DNA from: Candidatus Thorarchaeota archaeon
GTDB lineage: Archaea; Asgardarchaeota; Thorarchaeia; Thorarchaeales; Thorarchaeaceae
DNA: 64,000 bases
Direction of reading: 5' to 3'
NCBI GenBank assembly: GCA_048882485.1
Contig: JBHLRP010000003.1
Location: forward strand, 64,001-128,000
Made by a program: the position numbers and the translations under genes. Each line of letters starts with the position of its first letter. Within the stretch, counting starts at the first letter, position 1. Of the stretch, positions 38,412-48,787 are shown one piece after another. The notes below the pieces were generated by a model. That model made no database searches and was not told the origin of the DNA. It saw only the letters and a list, made by a program, of their open reading frames with translations.

Positions 38412-39482
38412 TTATGCTCCTACAAAGCTGCCTCTCAATTTGCTCGCTACAATTTCTGGAGGTATAACAACGACCTCAGTGTTAAGCAGATGTTGGAAAA
38501 AAAATTCTCCTGCTCGATACCCCCTTGTGAAATTCTGTCTCGTCGCTAACCTGATAAAACATCTATTGGATTTCTCTTGGTCGGTCAAGTCGCCAAGTTC
38601 TAGACTAAAATTGAAAGAAGAATAACCATCATTGCCATAGTACTCTAAAACATTGGATACTCCTTGGGCTAGAGAAGTGATAACCTCATCAGGCGTATCC
38701 TTGAATTTGCCACTTGGAAGAAGTCCAAAAACCTCATTTGTGCAGGTTGGTGAGAATGGAGTAAACCAGTGGGTAGACTCGAGCTGCCCAACATAGCGTA
38801 CTCCTAATTCCTTTTCCAATTCAATAAGGTCATCCCAATATTCATGACCATACTTCTCGCTGTACTCGAGCAATGCGTCCTGAGTCTTTCTAGAATAATT
38901 CGTTGGCTGAGAGGAGGCTATTAATTGTAGATGCGCATGTACAGCACTTGCACCTGCTGGCGGCATATAATTACAATTGAGTGATCCGAAGAGATTTTCA
39001 TCAGGCGGAAGATGGGAAACGAACTCCCTCGCCGCGAGAAATGCATCTCTTAGCATTGATGGGGCAAACTCCTGTGGTTTTAGAAAGTGTTTCTTAGATA
39101 ATACTATAATAGCATGAAATTTCGATAAAGGGAAAAGGTTTGGAAAAAGCACCGATTCACCAACTGTGATTCTTCCTTCTGGGAGGATTTCCTCAGGAAA
39201 CTTCGGTGTCGCCGTATGGACTTTTTCAGGGCAAAAGAAACACTTCTCACTGTTTTCGTTGACAAAAGCATTTAGAAATTCATCATCTGTACTCTCTATG
39301 AGAGTTTCGAGTTTGTCTACAAGCCTGAGTCCAATAATACTCATGTTTCCAGTGAGTGGATCTTTTCGAATTTCAATATCTTGAATATCCATTTCAAAAT
39401 CCATAAGAGGGCTGTGCAGTTTTGCTGATTCGCTGAATCTCTCCATTTTTATCCTGCTTGATACACCCGCCACAACTATCAC
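38412..39482 (-). CDS. GalT-like (HIT superfamily) sugar-1-phosphate nucleotidyltransferase
   Basis: EIRKDPLTG, CFFCP, FPNLFP, NY-x3-AGASAVHAHLQ, PEIVA. Confidence 0.8.
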   Translation of the reverse strand: MIVVAGVSSRIKMERFSESAKLHSPLMDFEMDIQDIEIRKDPLTGNMSIIGLRLVDKLETLIESTDDEFLNAFVNENSEKCFFCPEKVHTATPKFPEEILPEGRITVGESVLFPNLFPLSKFHAIIVLSKKHFLKPQEFAPSMLRDAFLAAREFVSHLPPDENLFGSLNCNYMPPAGASAVHAHLQLIASSQPTNYSRKTQDALLEYSEKYGHEYWDDLIELEKELGVRYVGQLESTHWFTPFSPTCTNEVFGLLPSGKFKDTPDEVITSLAQGVSNVLEYYGNDGYSSFNFSLELGDLTDQEKSNRCFIRLATRQNFTRGYRAGEFFFQHLLNTEVVVIPPEIVASKLRGSFVGA

Positions 39483-40456
39483 TCATTTCTTTTTTTCAAT
39501 TTAGCGGCTTTTGTACCGAATCGCTTAGCATGGTCTTTGACCACTAGTCTCCATGCTAGATTTGGCATTGCATAAAATCCAGATACAGTTTCGTTATCAG
39601 GTACATCCCTTACTACAACCGCATTGATTAATACACTTGAATTGTCACCAAGTGTAAGTCCATTAGAAACTGTGGCTCCAATCCCAATCCAACAATTCTC
39701 ACCAATTTCAGTGCTTCCCCCAATGCACGATGAAGCCGCAAGCTGGGTGTTTGTTTTGATATGTACATTGTGACCAATGTGAACCATGTTGTCAATCTTC
39801 ACACGGTCCTCCAAAATCGTATCACCAAAGGTTCCTCTATCAACACAAGAGCTATTTCCAAATTCTACATCATCACCAAATCGAACGCCGCCTATATGTA
39901 TCAGACGATGAATCCTGTTCTGAGCATCTCTCATTATGCGATATCCATCTCCACCAATACTTGCGTTGGCATCTATGATATTCCTTCTACCAATCTTGAC
40001 CCTGTCATAAATTGCAGTATTAGAGAATACTTCGCTATCATCACCAATGGTAACATCACTACCAACGACAACATAAGGGTGGATTTTTACTCGGTTTCCC
40101 AGATTCACATTTTTGCCAAATCGTGCTGTGGACTCTATCTCGCAACCTTTTCCCATTGTTGGCTTCGAATCATCTGGAGTGAAGGATTTTACATCTTTAT
40201 GAAACTCGTTATGTATCTCTAAAAATGCAATAAGTGGGTTTTCTACTTCGATGTATGTATTCCCCTCAATCTTAGAAACACGATCAAAGAATTTAGGTTC
40301 GACAAGTATGTAAGCTCCCTTGTTCGGAGAGATGTGTTTCAGAAATTGCATCTGATTGATGTAAGCGATATGCTTCTCTACTAGGCTCTGGATTGCACAC
40401 GTACTTGCAGCATCTTGAGGAATTCCATATTTTTTTAGGATATCACTGATAGTCAT
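39479..40456 (-). CDS. LpxD-like hexapeptide-repeat acyl-ACP:UDP-amino-sugar N-acyltransferase
   Basis: VENP-x2-AF, IGGDGY, HIGGV-x2-GDDVE-x-G, VDRG-x2-GDT, KIDNMVHIGHNV (catalytic His). Confidence 0.85.
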   Translation of the reverse strand: MTISDILKKYGIPQDAASTCAIQSLVEKHIAYINQMQFLKHISPNKGAYILVEPKFFDRVSKIEGNTYIEVENPLIAFLEIHNEFHKDVKSFTPDDSKPTMGKGCEIESTARFGKNVNLGNRVKIHPYVVVGSDVTIGDDSEVFSNTAIYDRVKIGRRNIIDANASIGGDGYRIMRDAQNRIHRLIHIGGVRFGDDVEFGNSSCVDRGTFGDTILEDRVKIDNMVHIGHNVHIKTNTQLAASSCIGGSTEIGENCWIGIGATVSNGLTLGDNSSVLINAVVVRDVPDNETVSGFYAMPNLAWRLVVKDHAKRFGTKAAKLKKRNE

Positions 40457-40518
40457 GATTGCTCGTTTTCATCAAAGGAACTCCTTCCTTTTGAATTATA
40501 CTTTGGATTGAGCTTCAT

Positions 40519-47213: not shown

Positions 47214-48128
47214 TTGAAACGATTACGTGTTTTATTTGTGGGGAATACTGCTGGAGCGATGACACCTGTTGCGGACTGGTTGTGTGCGAATGGTCATGAA
47301 GCGATAATCCTAGAAATGTACCACAATGACAGGTACGAATTGACATCAAGGTTTCCTTTTGCAAGAATGAGTACTTCAGCAACTGATTTTGTGGTTTCAA
47401 TAAAAGATGCAATTCTTGATTTAAACCCGACCCACATACATGTTAATGCATATTACAGCAGTCTTCCAATTATTCGAGCTTGCTCTCCATTCACTCCTGT
47501 CATTATGCATTATCATGGAATCGAAATACGATTCCGAAAGAGAATCCATCCAACTGTACGATTATTTGCAGACAAAGTGATTGTATCGACTCCGGATCTG
47601 AGAAAGTATGGAGATTGGTATGGTTGTCCTGTGCCAAAAGAATTCTATTTCCGTGGAGGTCGACAATTAGGAACAGCGGTAATGTTTTTTGGGCAAGTAT
47701 TACCTCTAGCTGACACGGATGAAAAGACGCAGGATGCAGAAAAGATCTGCAAGGAGCTAGGCTTGGAATTAACGATTATAAACAACCAAAGAGGTGAGAG
47801 TGTACCAAGCCATAAGATGCCTGAATTTCTTTCTAGTTTTGAATATCTCTTTGATTTCAAAGGACTTGTACATTCTCCGATTTTTTCTAAAACAGCGCTT
47901 GAGGCAATTTCCTGTGGAGTCAAAGTGATTCACGACTCAGATTTGACCAAGATTTATACATCTTATCCTATCAAAACACCCAAGGACTACTATGAACTAT
48001 ATCTCTCGGTGGAAAATCCCCCAGCATACAAGATACCCTTTCAAATGCTAGCATCTCTGATTCTTACTTCCTATTTTGCTCGAATGTTGGGCAGAAAAAT
48101 CAGGAGTGTTATGAAAAGGACTTCATGA
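47214..48128 (+). CDS. Compact GT-B (GT4-like) glycosyltransferase, tandem paralog
   Basis: YHG-x-EIR, VIVSTPDL, SKTALEAISCGVKVI. Confidence 0.75.
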   Translation: MKRLRVLFVGNTAGAMTPVADWLCANGHEAIILEMYHNDRYELTSRFPFARMSTSATDFVVSIKDAILDLNPTHIHVNAYYSSLPIIRACSPFTPVIMHYHGIEIRFRKRIHPTVRLFADKVIVSTPDLRKYGDWYGCPVPKEFYFRGGRQLGTAVMFFGQVLPLADTDEKTQDAEKICKELGLELTIINNQRGESVPSHKMPEFLSSFEYLFDFKGLVHSPIFSKTALEAISCGVKVIHDSDLTKIYTSYPIKTPKDYYELYLSVENPPAYKIPFQMLASLILTSYFARMLGRKIRSVMKRTS

Positions 48129-48133
48129 TTACT

Positions 48134-48787
48134 CTATTCAAAAATCCATGTACCACGAACTAAGATGAATGCCTCTGCAAACTCTGTGTTTATATATACT
48201 CCATCGCTTCTCATGATGGCTTCAAAATTATGCGGACTAAACCAATTGTTCCTCAATTCGAATTGGCTTTTATAGCATGCAAGCGCTTTCATTTTCATGT
48301 CCACTTCTTCTTTAGTCAGGGGCACGTATAGGTTTGGATTGAAGTCTTTTGATGTTCCCTTTATTCTATATTGGATGAGTGTCACTCGATGTCTAGTCGC
48401 AGCTCTCAAAGCTTCCTCTGCAACGGTTTTATGATCCTGATGAAAATCTCCATTGTAAGGCGCAATAATTAGATCTAATTCCAAGTCATTCCTATAGTCA
48501 TATATTATATCTAGGATTTCTTGCCTTGAATCTGGTAAGTACTTATTTTCAAAGTCATGATAAATACAACTTTTCACTCCAAGTAATTTTGCCGCTTTTT
48601 CATCTTCCCTCATAAGTTCGCCTTGTGGAAACCTGGTGCCGACGAGAGTGTCATCACATTTCGTAAAAACATGATACTCTATCTCGCATCCCTGCGTTGC
48701 GAGTTTGTACAATAGCGCACCAGCTCCAATTATTGAATCATCAGTGTGTGGTGAAAGAACCAGTGCTCTCTTTGGATTAATCTGCAT
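48134..48787 (-). CDS. PIG-L/LmbE family N-acetyl-sugar deacetylase
   Basis: SPHTDD, HQDH, K-x2-AL-x-CYKSQ, AEAF. Confidence 0.88.
   Translation of the reverse strand: MQINPKRALVLSPHTDDSIIGAGALLYKLATQGCEIEYHVFTKCDDTLVGTRFPQGELMREDEKAAKLLGVKSCIYHDFENKYLPDSRQEILDIIYDYRNDLELDLIIAPYNGDFHQDHKTVAEEALRAATRHRVTLIQYRIKGTSKDFNPNLYVPLTKEEVDMKMKALACYKSQFELRNNWFSPHNFEAIMRSDGVYINTEFAEAFILVRGTWIFE

What the first reader, a model, noticed from the sequence alone, without database searches (positions are those of the whole stretch)
39479..48787. Deacetylate-then-reacylate logic: PIG-L deacetylase plus LpxD-like transferase without lipid A genes
Seen: an LpxD-like protein retaining KIDN-x-V-x-I-x-HNV and an N-terminal uridine-binding-like region, a PIG-L deacetylase (HxDD, HQDH) 8 kb away, and no aminotransferase, LpxA, LpxB or LpxC in the window. 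Known: LpxD acylates a free amine on a UDP-sugar using acyl-ACP after a deacetylation step. Inference: PIG-L frees the amine of a UDP-HexNAc-type sugar, the LpxD homolog installs the ACP-bound acyl group, and the two intervening GT4 paralogs transfer the product.
Basis: inference. Interest (0 to 1): 0.7.

Follow-up and report, generated by a model that had tools for sequence, protein, structure and literature searches.

The report
Sugar N-acyl swapping cassette in Asgard archaeon
An uncultured Asgard (Thor-type) archaeon has a lipid-A-type acyltransferase built into a carrier-protein operon, with a deacetylase nearby, and the set most likely replaces the acetyl group on a surface-sugar amine with a custom hydroxy-acyl group; this kind of cassette recurs in other microbes but has not been studied biochemically.

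Summary
Gene 39479-40456 (-) is a full-length LpxD-type acyltransferase with the catalytic His. Gene 48134-48787 (-) is a PIG-L deacetylase with both zinc motifs. The genome has no LpxC, LpxB or LpxA, and the window has no sugar aminotransferase.

- **Well supported:** the LpxD-like enzyme uses the locus's own ACP. It closes a ten-gene operon (MaoC, ACP, AMP-ligase, Fe-ADH, LuxE, LuxC, LpxD-like, GalT-like, PPTase) that stays colinear in six Thorarchaeal lineages. The core also appears in two distant loci, and this ACP is the only one in the genome.
- **Plausible but not obligate:** the PIG-L link. A PIG-L lies directly upstream of an LpxD-like gene in three distant loci, once with the whole ACP module in a single operon. 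The window's PIG-L belongs to that same subfamily.
- **Against an obligate link:** in Thorarchaeia, PIG-L's steady neighbour is a GT2. Seven of nine genomes with this PIG-L lack the LpxD-like gene, and four module-bearing lineages show no PIG-L within the roughly 4-10 kb of flank seen.
the gene after the LpxD-like is a GalT-type nucleotidyltransferase, a possible second route to a free-amine UDP-sugar.
- **Untested:** a transfer role for the two compact GT4-like genes.

The scan has noted PIG-L/LpxD-like pairs before on other DNA (e1-4163447, e1-5236803).

The parts
36809..37639 (+). alpha/beta-hydrolase, a conserved neighbour of the PPTase; candidate editing thioesterase (inferred)
   Evidence: Pfam Abhydrolase_1, E 1e-15. 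Found at the same place, 49-69% identical, in L010, L011, L094 and L174.
37636..38403 (-). Sfp-type 4'-phosphopantetheinyl transferase; last gene of the operon
   Evidence: Pfam ACPS and AASDHPPT_N. Conserved after the GalT-like gene in all module-bearing Thorarchaeal loci. Also present in L199.
38412..39482 (-). GalT-like (HIT superfamily) nucleotidyltransferase; overlaps the LpxD-like stop codon by 4 nt
   Evidence: Invariant C81, C84, H123, H132 and H182-x-H184-x-Q186 (A1). Family profile against PDB: ADP-glucose phosphorylase 1z84, E 4.7e-12; E. coli GalT, E 5.7e-9. AlphaFold model pLDDT 89.5. Foldseek: 1z84, E 1.2e-16, TM 0.63-0.72.
39479..40456 (-). LpxD-type acyl-ACP N-acyltransferase of a non-lipid-A subfamily
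   Evidence: Family, structure and motif evidence. Lies in a 65-member clade (support 99) separate from canonical LpxD. H229, D222 and N223 are conserved; the canonical second His is Gly266 here.
40519..41709 (-). LuxC-type acyl-thioester reductase
   Evidence: Pfam LuxC, E 3.3e-79.
41808..42926 (-). LuxE-type acyl-protein synthetase (carboxylate activation)
   Evidence: Pfam LuxE, E 1.9e-61. Natural fusions exist with LuxC, with Fe-ADH and with an AMP-ligase.
42908..43984 (-). iron-containing alcohol dehydrogenase
   Evidence: Pfam Fe-ADH, E 2.5e-29.
43989..45488 (-). acyl-AMP-forming ligase (loads the acid on the ACP or on CoA)
   Evidence: Pfam AMP-binding, E 6.8e-69. NCBIfam ligase families score below their cut-offs.
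45485..45727 (-). acyl carrier protein, the only one in the genome
   Evidence: PP-binding, 23.8 bits (cut-off 20.8). A DSWDS serine motif is present. It is the single PF00550 match in the genome.
45735..46136 (-). MaoC-type (R)-specific enoyl hydratase/dehydratase; first gene of the operon
   Evidence: Pfam MaoC_dehydratas, E 2.4e-21. Lies directly beside the LpxD-like gene in L196 and L199.
46284..47207 (+). compact GT4-like glycosyltransferase (GT4a)
   Evidence: Weak Glyco_transf_4 match, E 2e-4. Atlas neighbours are short archaeal GT4-domain clusters. Orthologs in L094 (75%), L092 (54%) and L175 (49%).
47214..48128 (+). compact GT4-like glycosyltransferase (GT4b), a paralog of GT4a
   Evidence: Glyco_transf_4, E 2e-5. 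78% ortholog in L094.
48134..48787 (-). PIG-L/LmbE-family zinc deacetylase; its own transcription unit
   Evidence: Family and motif evidence. Nearest solved relatives are archaeal diacetylchitobiose deacetylases, E 1e-13. It is 34-36% identical to the LpxD-adjacent PIG-Ls of L036 and L198, against 27% to the genome's other PIG-L.
52692..53630 (+). GT2 glycosyltransferase, the steady neighbour of this PIG-L in other Thorarchaeia
   Evidence: Pfam Glycos_transf_2, E 1.9e-6. Orthologs 46-82% identical lie next to PIG-L in L175, L176, L187 and L189-L192.

Best explanation
The locus is an N-acyl editing cassette for a surface-glycan amino sugar, sitting in a low-GC, hypervariable glycan island of an Asgard (Thor-type) archaeon.

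**The operon (46136 down to 37636, minus strand).**
- It primes the genome's only ACP with the PPTase.
- It loads a carboxylic acid on the ACP with the AMP-ligase.
- It tailors the acid: MaoC hydrates or dehydrates it to an (R)-3-hydroxy form, and LuxE, LuxC and Fe-ADH reduce a distal carboxyl through the aldehyde to an alcohol. From memory, this is the route proposed for tetronate in Vibrio cholerae O1.
- The LpxD-type enzyme then transfers the finished hydroxy-acyl group from the ACP to a free sugar amine, using the conserved catalytic His229.
- The acceptor is most likely a UDP-hexosamine, because the LpxD N-terminal domain is retained and relatives sit among UDP-sugar enzymes.

**Source of the free amine.** In this genome it most likely comes from the PIG-L deacetylase at 48134-48787, which would remove an N-acetyl group. 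That is the same logic as LpxC then LpxD, or NodB then NodA with NodF. The coupling is facultative. The GalT-like nucleotidyltransferase that follows the LpxD-like gene could supply UDP-hexosamine from hexosamine-1-phosphate instead.

**Shown:** gene identities, operon conservation, gene-pair recurrence.
**Inferred:** every substrate, the acyl group, and the order of steps.
For: **1. LpxD-type enzyme.** Family, structure, motif and conservation evidence.

**2. The module is a functional unit.**
- Colinear with the LpxD-like gene in the window, L094, L010/L090, L011/L095, L174 and the P0011 locus.
- The module also lies beside LpxD-likes in L196 (38% identical; AMP-ligase not seen, contig cut upstream) and L199 (48% identical, complete).
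- Natural fusions LuxE-LuxC, LuxE-FeADH and LuxE-AMP-ligase exist.
- The ACP is the only one in the genome.

**3. Distinct subfamily.** The protein lies in a 65-member clade (support 99) apart from canonical LpxD. The genome has no lipid A genes.

**4. PIG-L link.**
- PIG-L lies directly upstream of an LpxD-like gene in L036 (8 bp gap), L198 (14 bp gap) and L199 (overlapping). In L199 it shares one operon with MaoC, ACP, ligase, Fe-ADH, LuxE, LuxC, PPTase and GT2.
- 0 of about 150 canonical LpxD loci have a PIG-L nearby.
- The window's PIG-L is 34-36% identical to those LpxD-adjacent PIG-Ls, against 27% to the genome's GT4-paired PIG-L.
- PIG-L shares the island with the LpxD-like gene in the window, L094, L175 and L176.
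- 4 of 4 LpxD-like-bearing Thorarchaeal genomes hold a PIG-L of this subfamily, against 26 of 87 overall.
- In two loci without the LpxD-like gene, a different LbH acyltransferase lies beside PIG-L.

**5. UDP-sugar level.** Relatives sit inside WbpA/B/D/E/I-like or UDP-sugar dehydrogenase contexts.

**6. Precedent.** wbeL and its downstream genes are needed for tetronate in V. cholerae O1 (PMC3441752). ACP/LuxE/LuxC/ligase sets occur in flagellin glycosylation islands (PMC4875605).
Against: - PIG-L is not co-transcribed with the operon here.
- Seven of nine Thorarchaeal genomes with the orthologous PIG-L (57-66% identity) lack any LpxD-like gene. There PIG-L sits beside the GT2 ortholog and the CCG/FAD-oxidase/Alg14/Alg13 border.
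- Module-bearing loci L010/L090, L011, L174 and the P0011 locus show no PIG-L within the flank seen (about 4.3 kb on one side of L174, about 10 kb elsewhere). L090 carries a DegT aminotransferase and an SDR instead.
- Three of six non-Thor subfamily loci show no PIG-L: L196, L200 and the P0029 locus. A seventh locus, L202, has an unassigned 253-aa gene in that position.
- To my knowledge, no PIG-L enzyme is known to act on a nucleotide sugar.
- The Thorarchaeal lineages share one island, so their co-occurrences are not independent.
Confidence: 0.55

Rival explanations
1. Two independent modules share a hot-spot island. PIG-L works with the GT2, and perhaps with Alg13/14 products, to make a glucosamine-containing glycan or lipid. 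The LpxD-like enzyme gets its amine elsewhere: from UDP-hexosamine made by the operon's GalT-like enzyme out of hexosamine-1-phosphate, or from an aminotransferase product.
For: - GT2-PIG-L adjacency holds in seven loci, six of which lack the LpxD-like gene.
- 7 of 9 PIG-L genomes lack the LpxD-like gene.
- The GalT-like gene follows the LpxD-like gene in all six module-bearing Thorarchaeal lineages, four of which show no PIG-L in the flank seen.
- DegT plus SDR lie upstream of the module in L090.
- PIG-L is a separate transcription unit.
Against: - PIG-L is immediately upstream of LpxD-like genes in L036, L198 and L199, none of which shows a GalT-like gene in the DNA seen.
- The window's PIG-L belongs to that subfamily.
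- All four LpxD-like genomes keep a PIG-L.
- The GalT-like family is also a stand-alone housekeeping-type gene elsewhere.
Confidence: 0.28
2. The same deacetylate-then-reacylate logic, but on a lipid-linked sugar. The GT2 makes polyprenyl-phosphate-HexNAc, PIG-L deacetylates it, the LpxD-like enzyme reacylates it, and a membrane transferase passes it on. This parallels ArnC/ArnD/ArnT and FlmF2/NaxD/FlmK (from memory).
For: - GT2 accompanies PIG-L in Thorarchaeia.
- GT2 is in or next to the PIG-L/LpxD-like operons of L199 and L036, both of which also carry a PMT-type GT-C transferase.
- From memory, known PIG-L enzymes act on GlcNAc glycosides, not on nucleotide sugars.
Against: - The LpxD N-terminal (uridine-binding) domain is retained.
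- Chloroflexi-type relatives lie inside nucleotide-sugar pathways.
- No GT-C transferase was found in this window's island, and the GT2 has no predicted membrane segment.
Confidence: 0.12
3. The LpxD-like protein uses acetyl- or acyl-CoA, or it is a decaying relic, and the ACP module makes an unrelated product such as a fatty alcohol.
For: - LpxD-like genes persist without the module in L175, which keeps a LuxC remnant upstream, and in L176 and L092.
- LuxE was not found in the genome that holds L176.
Against: - The gene is intact, with its catalytic residues invariant across 65 relatives.
- It overlaps the next gene inside the ACP operon.
- The module and the LpxD-like gene are linked over 38-100% identity.
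- The module has no chain-elongating ketosynthase.
Confidence: 0.05

Closest known systems
LpxC then LpxD steps of lipid A biosynthesis (UDP-3-O-acyl-GlcNAc deacetylase, then the acyl-ACP N-acyltransferase)
   Same: - The logic is the same: deacetylate, then N-acylate from an (R)-3-hydroxyacyl-ACP.
- The acyltransferase is a true homolog with the same three-domain layout and catalytic His.
   Different: - The genome has no LpxA, LpxC or LpxB.
- The deacetylase candidate is PIG-L family, not LpxC.
- The protein lies in a separate clade and scores below the LpxD equivalog cut-off.
- The canonical second His is Gly.
- The acyl donor comes from a private ACP with reductive tailoring, not from fatty-acid synthesis.
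Vibrio cholerae O1 wbe/rfb K-L-M-N-O genes for 3-deoxy-L-glycero-tetronate on perosamine
   Same: - The gene set matches: ACP, AMP-ligase, Fe-ADH, LuxE/LuxC-type reductase and an LbH transferase, all inside a glycan cluster.
- wbeL is required for tetronate (PMC3441752). The gene-by-gene content is from memory.
- An RfbT-like FkbM methyltransferase is also nearby.
   Different: - This locus adds MaoC, a PPTase, a GalT-like enzyme and a PIG-L.
- The transferase here is full-length LpxD-type.
- In V. cholerae the amine comes from an aminotransferase (GDP-perosamine).
- Direct sequence comparison with the V. cholerae proteins could not be run.
Nod factor N-acylation (NodC GT2, NodB deacetylase, NodA acyltransferase, NodF ACP); teicoplanin GlcNAc deacetylase Orf2* (PIG-L family) with its acyltransferase; butirosin BtrD/BtrI/BtrH
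   Same: These systems share the working logic, cited from memory: a glycosyltransferase, de-N-acetylation, and N-acylation with a custom acyl group, which in Nod factor and butirosin comes from a dedicated ACP. Teicoplanin and butirosin use PIG-L-family deacetylases.
   Different: - The acyltransferases are unrelated: NodA, Orf11* and BtrH are not LbH enzymes.
- NodB belongs to family CE4.
- Those products are signals or antibiotics, not an archaeal surface glycan.
- No homology was tested here.
GlmU (GlcN-1-P N-acetyltransferase LbH domain plus uridylyltransferase)
   Same: An LbH N-acyltransferase is coupled to a sugar-1-phosphate nucleotidyltransferase. Here the LpxD-like and GalT-like genes overlap. 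GlmU is the next-best fold match after LpxD.
   Different: The two activities are on separate proteins. The nucleotidyltransferase is of the HIT/GalT type. The donor is acyl-ACP rather than acetyl-CoA. The link is inferred only.

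Membership tests
LpxD (UDP-3-O-acylglucosamine N-acyltransferase, TIGR01853 equivalog) | Score above the curated equivalog cut-off | tested here: not met
   225.7 bits against a cut-off of 242.5. The broader subfamily model NF002060 is passed (232 against 207).
LpxD (UDP-3-O-acylglucosamine N-acyltransferase, TIGR01853 equivalog) | Catalytic His in the LbH domain (E. coli His239, numbering from memory) with the preceding D-N | tested here: met
   H229 is invariant in 65 subfamily and 47 canonical sequences. D222 and N223 are conserved.
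LpxD (UDP-3-O-acylglucosamine N-acyltransferase, TIGR01853 equivalog) | Three-domain layout: N-terminal uridine-binding domain, LbH domain, C-terminal helix | tested here: met
   HMM and PDB alignments span residues 20-307. In the AlphaFold model the N-domain has pLDDT above 90 and a C-terminal helix spans 299-324. The top 25 Foldseek hits are all LpxD over 335-358 columns, although global TM is only 0.37-0.49. Pfam's LpxD N-domain model does not hit this protein.
LpxD (UDP-3-O-acylglucosamine N-acyltransferase, TIGR01853 equivalog) | Second conserved His of canonical LpxD (column of window residue 266) | tested here: not met
   His in 35 of 47 canonical sequences; Gly in 47 of 65 subfamily members and 22 of 23 Thorarchaeal members.
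LpxD (UDP-3-O-acylglucosamine N-acyltransferase, TIGR01853 equivalog) | Lipid A pathway partners (LpxA, LpxC, LpxB) in the genome | tested here: not met
   No LpxC, no LpxB and no second LpxA/LpxD-like protein in a 90.5%-complete genome.
LpxD (UDP-3-O-acylglucosamine N-acyltransferase, TIGR01853 equivalog) | Groups with canonical LpxD in a tree | tested here: not met
   It lies in a separate 65-row clade with support 99 (FastTree, midpoint root).
PIG-L / LmbE zinc deacetylases (PF02585) | Pfam score above the gathering threshold, plus the metal and catalytic motifs HxDD and HxxH | tested here: met
   61.4 bits against 28.2. H14-T-D-D and H116-Q-D-H119 are present. Homologous to solved deacetylases 8bgn, 3wl4 and 2ixd.
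Tetronate-type ACP acyl-tailoring module (V. cholerae O1 wbeK-O) | Gene content: ACP, AMP-ligase, Fe-ADH, LuxE/LuxC-type reductase and LbH transferase in one glycan-cluster operon | tested here: met
   Pfam assignments. Conserved colinearity.
Tetronate-type ACP acyl-tailoring module (V. cholerae O1 wbeK-O) | Sequence orthology to the V. cholerae proteins, and a tetronate product | not testable with these tools
   No V. cholerae sequence was retrievable. None appeared among the top 120 fused LuxE homologs.
GalT / HIT-superfamily nucleotidyltransferases (for gene 38412-39482) | HxHxQ nucleotidyl-His motif, Zn-site Cys/His residues, GalT fold | tested here: met
   Invariant residues in A1. Profile E 4.7e-12 to 1z84. 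Foldseek E 1.2e-16, TM 0.63-0.72. Pfam models themselves give only weak hits: DUF4921 in 25 of 39 members.
GT4 glycosyltransferases (for 46284-47207 and 47214-48128) | Pfam GT4 domains above threshold, and a GT-B fold | tested here: inconclusive
   Only sub-threshold N-domain hits (21.9 and 25.1 bits against 28.5). No PDB sequence match. Atlas neighbours are short archaeal GT4-domain clusters. The fold was not predicted.

The most novel reading that the evidence does not exclude
PIG-L plus a non-lipid-A LpxD-type transferase plus a private, reductively tailoring ACP module would form a widespread, undescribed N-acyl editing system. It would swap the acetyl group of a UDP- or lipid-linked hexosamine for a custom hydroxy-acyl group. 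It is found in Asgard archaea, Chloroflexi and other uncultured lineages. In Thorarchaeia it would have gained a GalT-type enzyme as a second, deacetylase-independent entry to the same free-amine sugar. That would make ACP-dependent chemistry a working part of archaeal surface-glycan synthesis.
Probability: 0.4. Interest if true: 0.7.

Novelty: new variant of a known kind. Interest (0 to 1): 0.6.

Why it matters
- Carrier-protein chemistry and LpxD-type enzymes are regarded as bacterial. This genome has a complete, conserved ACP operon ending in an LpxD homolog, with no lipid A pathway and only one ACP.
- The operon gives a concrete, testable route to unusual N-acyl sugars on the surface of Asgard archaea.
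- The non-lipid-A LpxD clade is routinely mis-annotated as the lipid A enzyme. Public records name these proteins 'UDP-3-O-(3-hydroxymyristoyl)glucosamine N-acyltransferase'.
- The recurrent pairing with PIG-L points to a general way of rewriting N-acetyl groups on sugars. It parallels lipid A, Nod-factor and lipoglycopeptide biosynthesis.

Tried and rejected
1. **Early reading, later revised.** After I read the PIG-L link as unsupported. The closest loci (L010, L011, L174) have the module without PIG-L, and PIG-L orthologs pair with the GT2 in genomes lacking the LpxD-like gene. Searches then showed PIG-L directly upstream of LpxD-like genes in L036, L198 and L199, so I revised that reading.
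2. **A lipid-A-like glycolipid.** Rejected: the genome has no LpxA, LpxB or LpxC.
3. **The own genome's DegT on contig C33 as the amine source.** It is only 33% identical to the DegT of L090 and sits among unrelated genes. It is neither supported nor excluded.
4. **A regex screen for LbH proteins near PIG-L.** Too noisy; replaced by tblastn.
5. **Looking for V. cholerae WbeN among fused LuxE homologs.** None was named in the best 120, so the tetronate comparison rests on PMC3441752 and on memory.
6. **Literature searches** for LpxD homologs outside lipid A, or in Asgard archaea, found nothing relevant in the held library.
7. **A class-wide search around the Chloroflexi locus** gave only 2 carriers in 201 genomes, too few for statistics.
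8. **Not run:** complex prediction and read mapping. An enzyme with its carrier is a poor case for the first, and RNA data for this MAG are unlikely.

Full report
**Setting.** The window is archaeal. It carries RpoH/Rpb5 genes, Alg13/Alg14 homologs and a type IV pilus/archaellum-type membrane protein. The closest homologs of the proteins studied come from Thorarchaeota and Sifarchaeia MAGs. The stretch from about 33.5 to 53.7 kb has 40% G+C, against 46% around it. It lies between TatD (31628-32419) and a CCG/FAD-oxidase pair followed by Alg14/Alg13 (53792-57852). The same flanks enclose very different gene sets in related genomes, so this is a hypervariable glycan island.

**Observation.**
- Gene 39479-40456 (-) passes the NCBIfam LpxD subfamily model (232 bits, cut-off 207) but just misses the equivalog model (225.7 against 242.5).
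- It aligns with solved LpxD over residues 20-304 and carries K-I-D-N-M-V-H-I-G-H-N-V.
- Gene 48134-48787 (-) is a PIG-L deacetylase with HTDD and HQDH.
- No DegT-type gene lies in the window. The genome (90.5% complete) has no LpxC, no LpxB and no other LpxA/LpxD-like protein.
  - Six further genes (LuxC, LuxE, Fe-ADH, AMP-ligase, ACP, MaoC) lie between the two genes.
  - The two 'GT4' genes have only sub-threshold GT4 N-domain matches.
  - PIG-L is a separate transcription unit, convergent with GT4b.

**The LpxD-like gene belongs to an ACP operon.**
- From 46136 down to 37636 on the minus strand run MaoC, ACP, AMP-ligase, Fe-ADH, LuxE, LuxC, the LpxD-like gene, a 356-aa gene and an Sfp-type PPTase. 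Several start/stop codons overlap.
- This order is kept, at 49-90% protein identity (23-46% for the PPTase), in L094, L010/L090, L011/L095, L174 and the P0011 locus.
- The core also lies beside LpxD-like genes only 38% (L196) and 48% (L199) identical.
- Natural fusions LuxE-LuxC, LuxE-FeADH and LuxE-AMP-ligase show that these enzymes act together.
- The ACP has the serine motif and is the only PP-binding protein in the genome. If the LpxD-like enzyme uses an ACP donor, it is this one.
- The module has no ketosynthase. The acid is therefore taken up whole and tailored, not elongated.
- For the thioester to survive until transfer, LuxE, LuxC and Fe-ADH must reduce a second, distal carboxyl. From memory, this is what was proposed for tetronate in V. 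cholerae O1. There wbeL, the ligase, is required for the tetronate decoration (PMC3441752).
- MaoC enzymes make (R)-3-hydroxyacyl thioesters, the donor type that LpxD uses (established knowledge). In L196 and L199, MaoC sits directly beside the LpxD-like gene.

**A distinct subfamily.**
- In a tree of 113 homologs the window protein lies in a 65-member clade (support 99) apart from canonical LpxD.
- The clade holds the Thorarchaeal sequences, the L199 group and a Chloroflexi-type group.
- The catalytic His and the D-N before it are invariant or nearly so. A His present in 35 of 47 canonical sequences is Gly in this clade, and several neighbouring positions differ consistently.
- Only 4 of 87 Thorarchaeal species genomes carry the gene, each in a different genus.

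**The missed gene.**
- The 356-aa gene overlaps the LpxD-like stop codon and had no Pfam match.
- It belongs to a large family with invariant CxxC, His and HxHxQ residues.
- The family profile matches ADP-glucose phosphorylase and E. coli GalT.
- A confident model (pLDDT 89.5) matches the GalT fold (E 1.2e-16).
- It follows the LpxD-like gene in all six module-bearing Thorarchaeal lineages, but not in the LpxD-like loci that lack the module, nor in L196, L198 or L199.
- An inferred role is to make a UDP-hexosamine from hexosamine-1-phosphate, or to activate the N-acylated sugar phosphate. Either would be a GlmU-like division of labour.

**Is PIG-L coupled to the LpxD-like enzyme? Evidence against an obligate link.**
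- Orthologs of this PIG-L (57-66% identity) occur in 9 of 87 genomes, and only two of those have the LpxD-like gene.
- In the others, PIG-L lies next to the ortholog of the window's GT2 (52692-53630) and the CCG/Alg14/Alg13 border.
- Four module-bearing lineages show no PIG-L within the roughly 4-10 kb of flank seen. L090 carries a DegT aminotransferase and an SDR instead.

**Evidence for a link.**
- A PIG-L gene lies immediately upstream of an LpxD-like gene in three distant loci:
  - L036: 8 bp gap, in a polysaccharide cluster that also has a GT2 and a PMT-type transferase.
  - L198: a Chloroflexi MAG, 14 bp gap, inside a WbpB/D/E/I-like UDP-sugar operon.
  - L199: overlapping genes, followed by MaoC, ACP, ligase, Fe-ADH, LuxE, LuxC, PPTase and GT2 on one strand.
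- None of about 150 canonical LpxD loci fetched in the same scans has a PIG-L nearby.
- The window's PIG-L is much closer to the L198 and L036 PIG-Ls (34-36% identity, E 1e-32 to 1e-41) than to the genome's other PIG-L (27%, E 1e-9). That other PIG-L is paired with a canonical GT4.
- The LpxD-like gene and PIG-L share the island in the window, L094, L175 and L176. In L176 the island is reduced to LpxD-like, GT2 and two PIG-Ls.
- All four Thorarchaeal genomes with the LpxD-like gene hold a PIG-L of this subfamily, against 26 of 87 overall. Because these genomes are related, this is suggestive only.
- In two loci without the LpxD-like gene, a different LbH acyltransferase lies next to PIG-L.
- The pattern fits an optional tailoring step. 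The acyltransferase tends to need a deacetylase, while the deacetylase does not need this acyltransferase.

**Substrate level.**
- The retained LpxD N-terminal domain favours a UDP-sugar acceptor. So do the contexts rich in UDP-sugar enzymes.
- The steady GT2 partner, the PMT-type transferases in L036 and L199, and the known habits of PIG-L enzymes keep a lipid-linked acceptor possible.
- The window's island has no GT-C transferase, and its GT2 has no predicted membrane segment.

**The GT4-like pair.** It accompanies the module only in the window and in L094. Single relatives occur in L092 and L175. A role in transferring the product is untested.

**Comparison and novelty.**
- The enzyme works like LpxD, but on four tested features it is not the lipid A enzyme.
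- The module is of the V. cholerae tetronate kind, also noted in enterobacterial flagellin glycosylation islands (PMC4875605).
- The logic parallels LpxC/LpxD, NodB/NodA/NodF and the teicoplanin deacetylase/acyltransferase pair (from memory).
- I found no paper on this LpxD clade or on its pairing with PIG-L.
- Earlier notes of this scan report PIG-L/LpxD-like pairs on other DNA. They agree with what I found independently in L036, L198 and L199.
- I rate it a new variant of a known kind, of moderate to good interest.

Noticed in passing
window 28061-28615 and 28646-29278 (+): Two tandem Rpb5/RpoH genes, each with an N-terminal Mrr/PD-(D/E)XK-like domain. Single copies of this long form lie at the same place in related loci.
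   Followed up: no
window 32506-33297 (-) and 33627-34361 (+): Two FkbM-type methyltransferases. The first scores 27.8 bits on Pfam's V_cholerae_RfbT model (cut-off 27.9). That is one more parallel to the V. cholerae O1 O-antigen locus.
   Followed up: no
window 49057-50103 and 50093-50605 (+): Two membrane proteins with no known family. The 348-aa protein is a tandem duplicate of the 170-aa unit, and each unit is a two-helix hairpin. Both also lie just upstream of the module in L010/L090.
   Followed up: partly
window 50602-52680 (+): A nucleotidyltransferase (NTP_transf_3) followed by a TagF-like CDP-glycerol-type phosphotransferase. This is teichoic-acid-like chemistry inside an archaeal glycan island, inserted between PIG-L and its usual GT2 neighbour.
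   Followed up: no
L175 5219-5403; L094 2741-2821: Gene remnants: a LuxC C-terminal fragment upstream of an intact LpxD-like gene that lacks the module, and a 27-aa LpxD-like fragment next to GT4a. The island is rearranged often.
   Followed up: partly
own genome contig C30 (L205 5991-9824): The genome's second PIG-L is paired divergently with a canonical 387-aa GT4 and lies next to a PGM/PMM-type mutase. This is the classical GT4 plus PIG-L pair, as for GlcN-inositol-type lipids or thiols.
   Followed up: partly
L198 8364-14822; L200 7761-12790; L202 3976-10916: In the Chloroflexi-type branch the LpxD-like gene sits inside an operon like WbpA/B/D/E/I, the UDP-2,3-diacetamido-glucuronate pathway. 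The slot before it holds PIG-L in L198, an unassigned 253-aa gene in L202, and nothing in L200.
   Followed up: partly
proteins P0246-P0267: Fused forms of LuxE occur widely: LuxE-FeADH in Hermodarchaeota, LuxE-AMP-ligase in Methanohalophilus and others, and LuxE-LuxC in many Firmicutes and Planctomycetes.
   Followed up: no
window 35503-36345 (-): A DUF346 repeat (propeller-like) protein lies between the methyltransferases and the operon.
   Followed up: no
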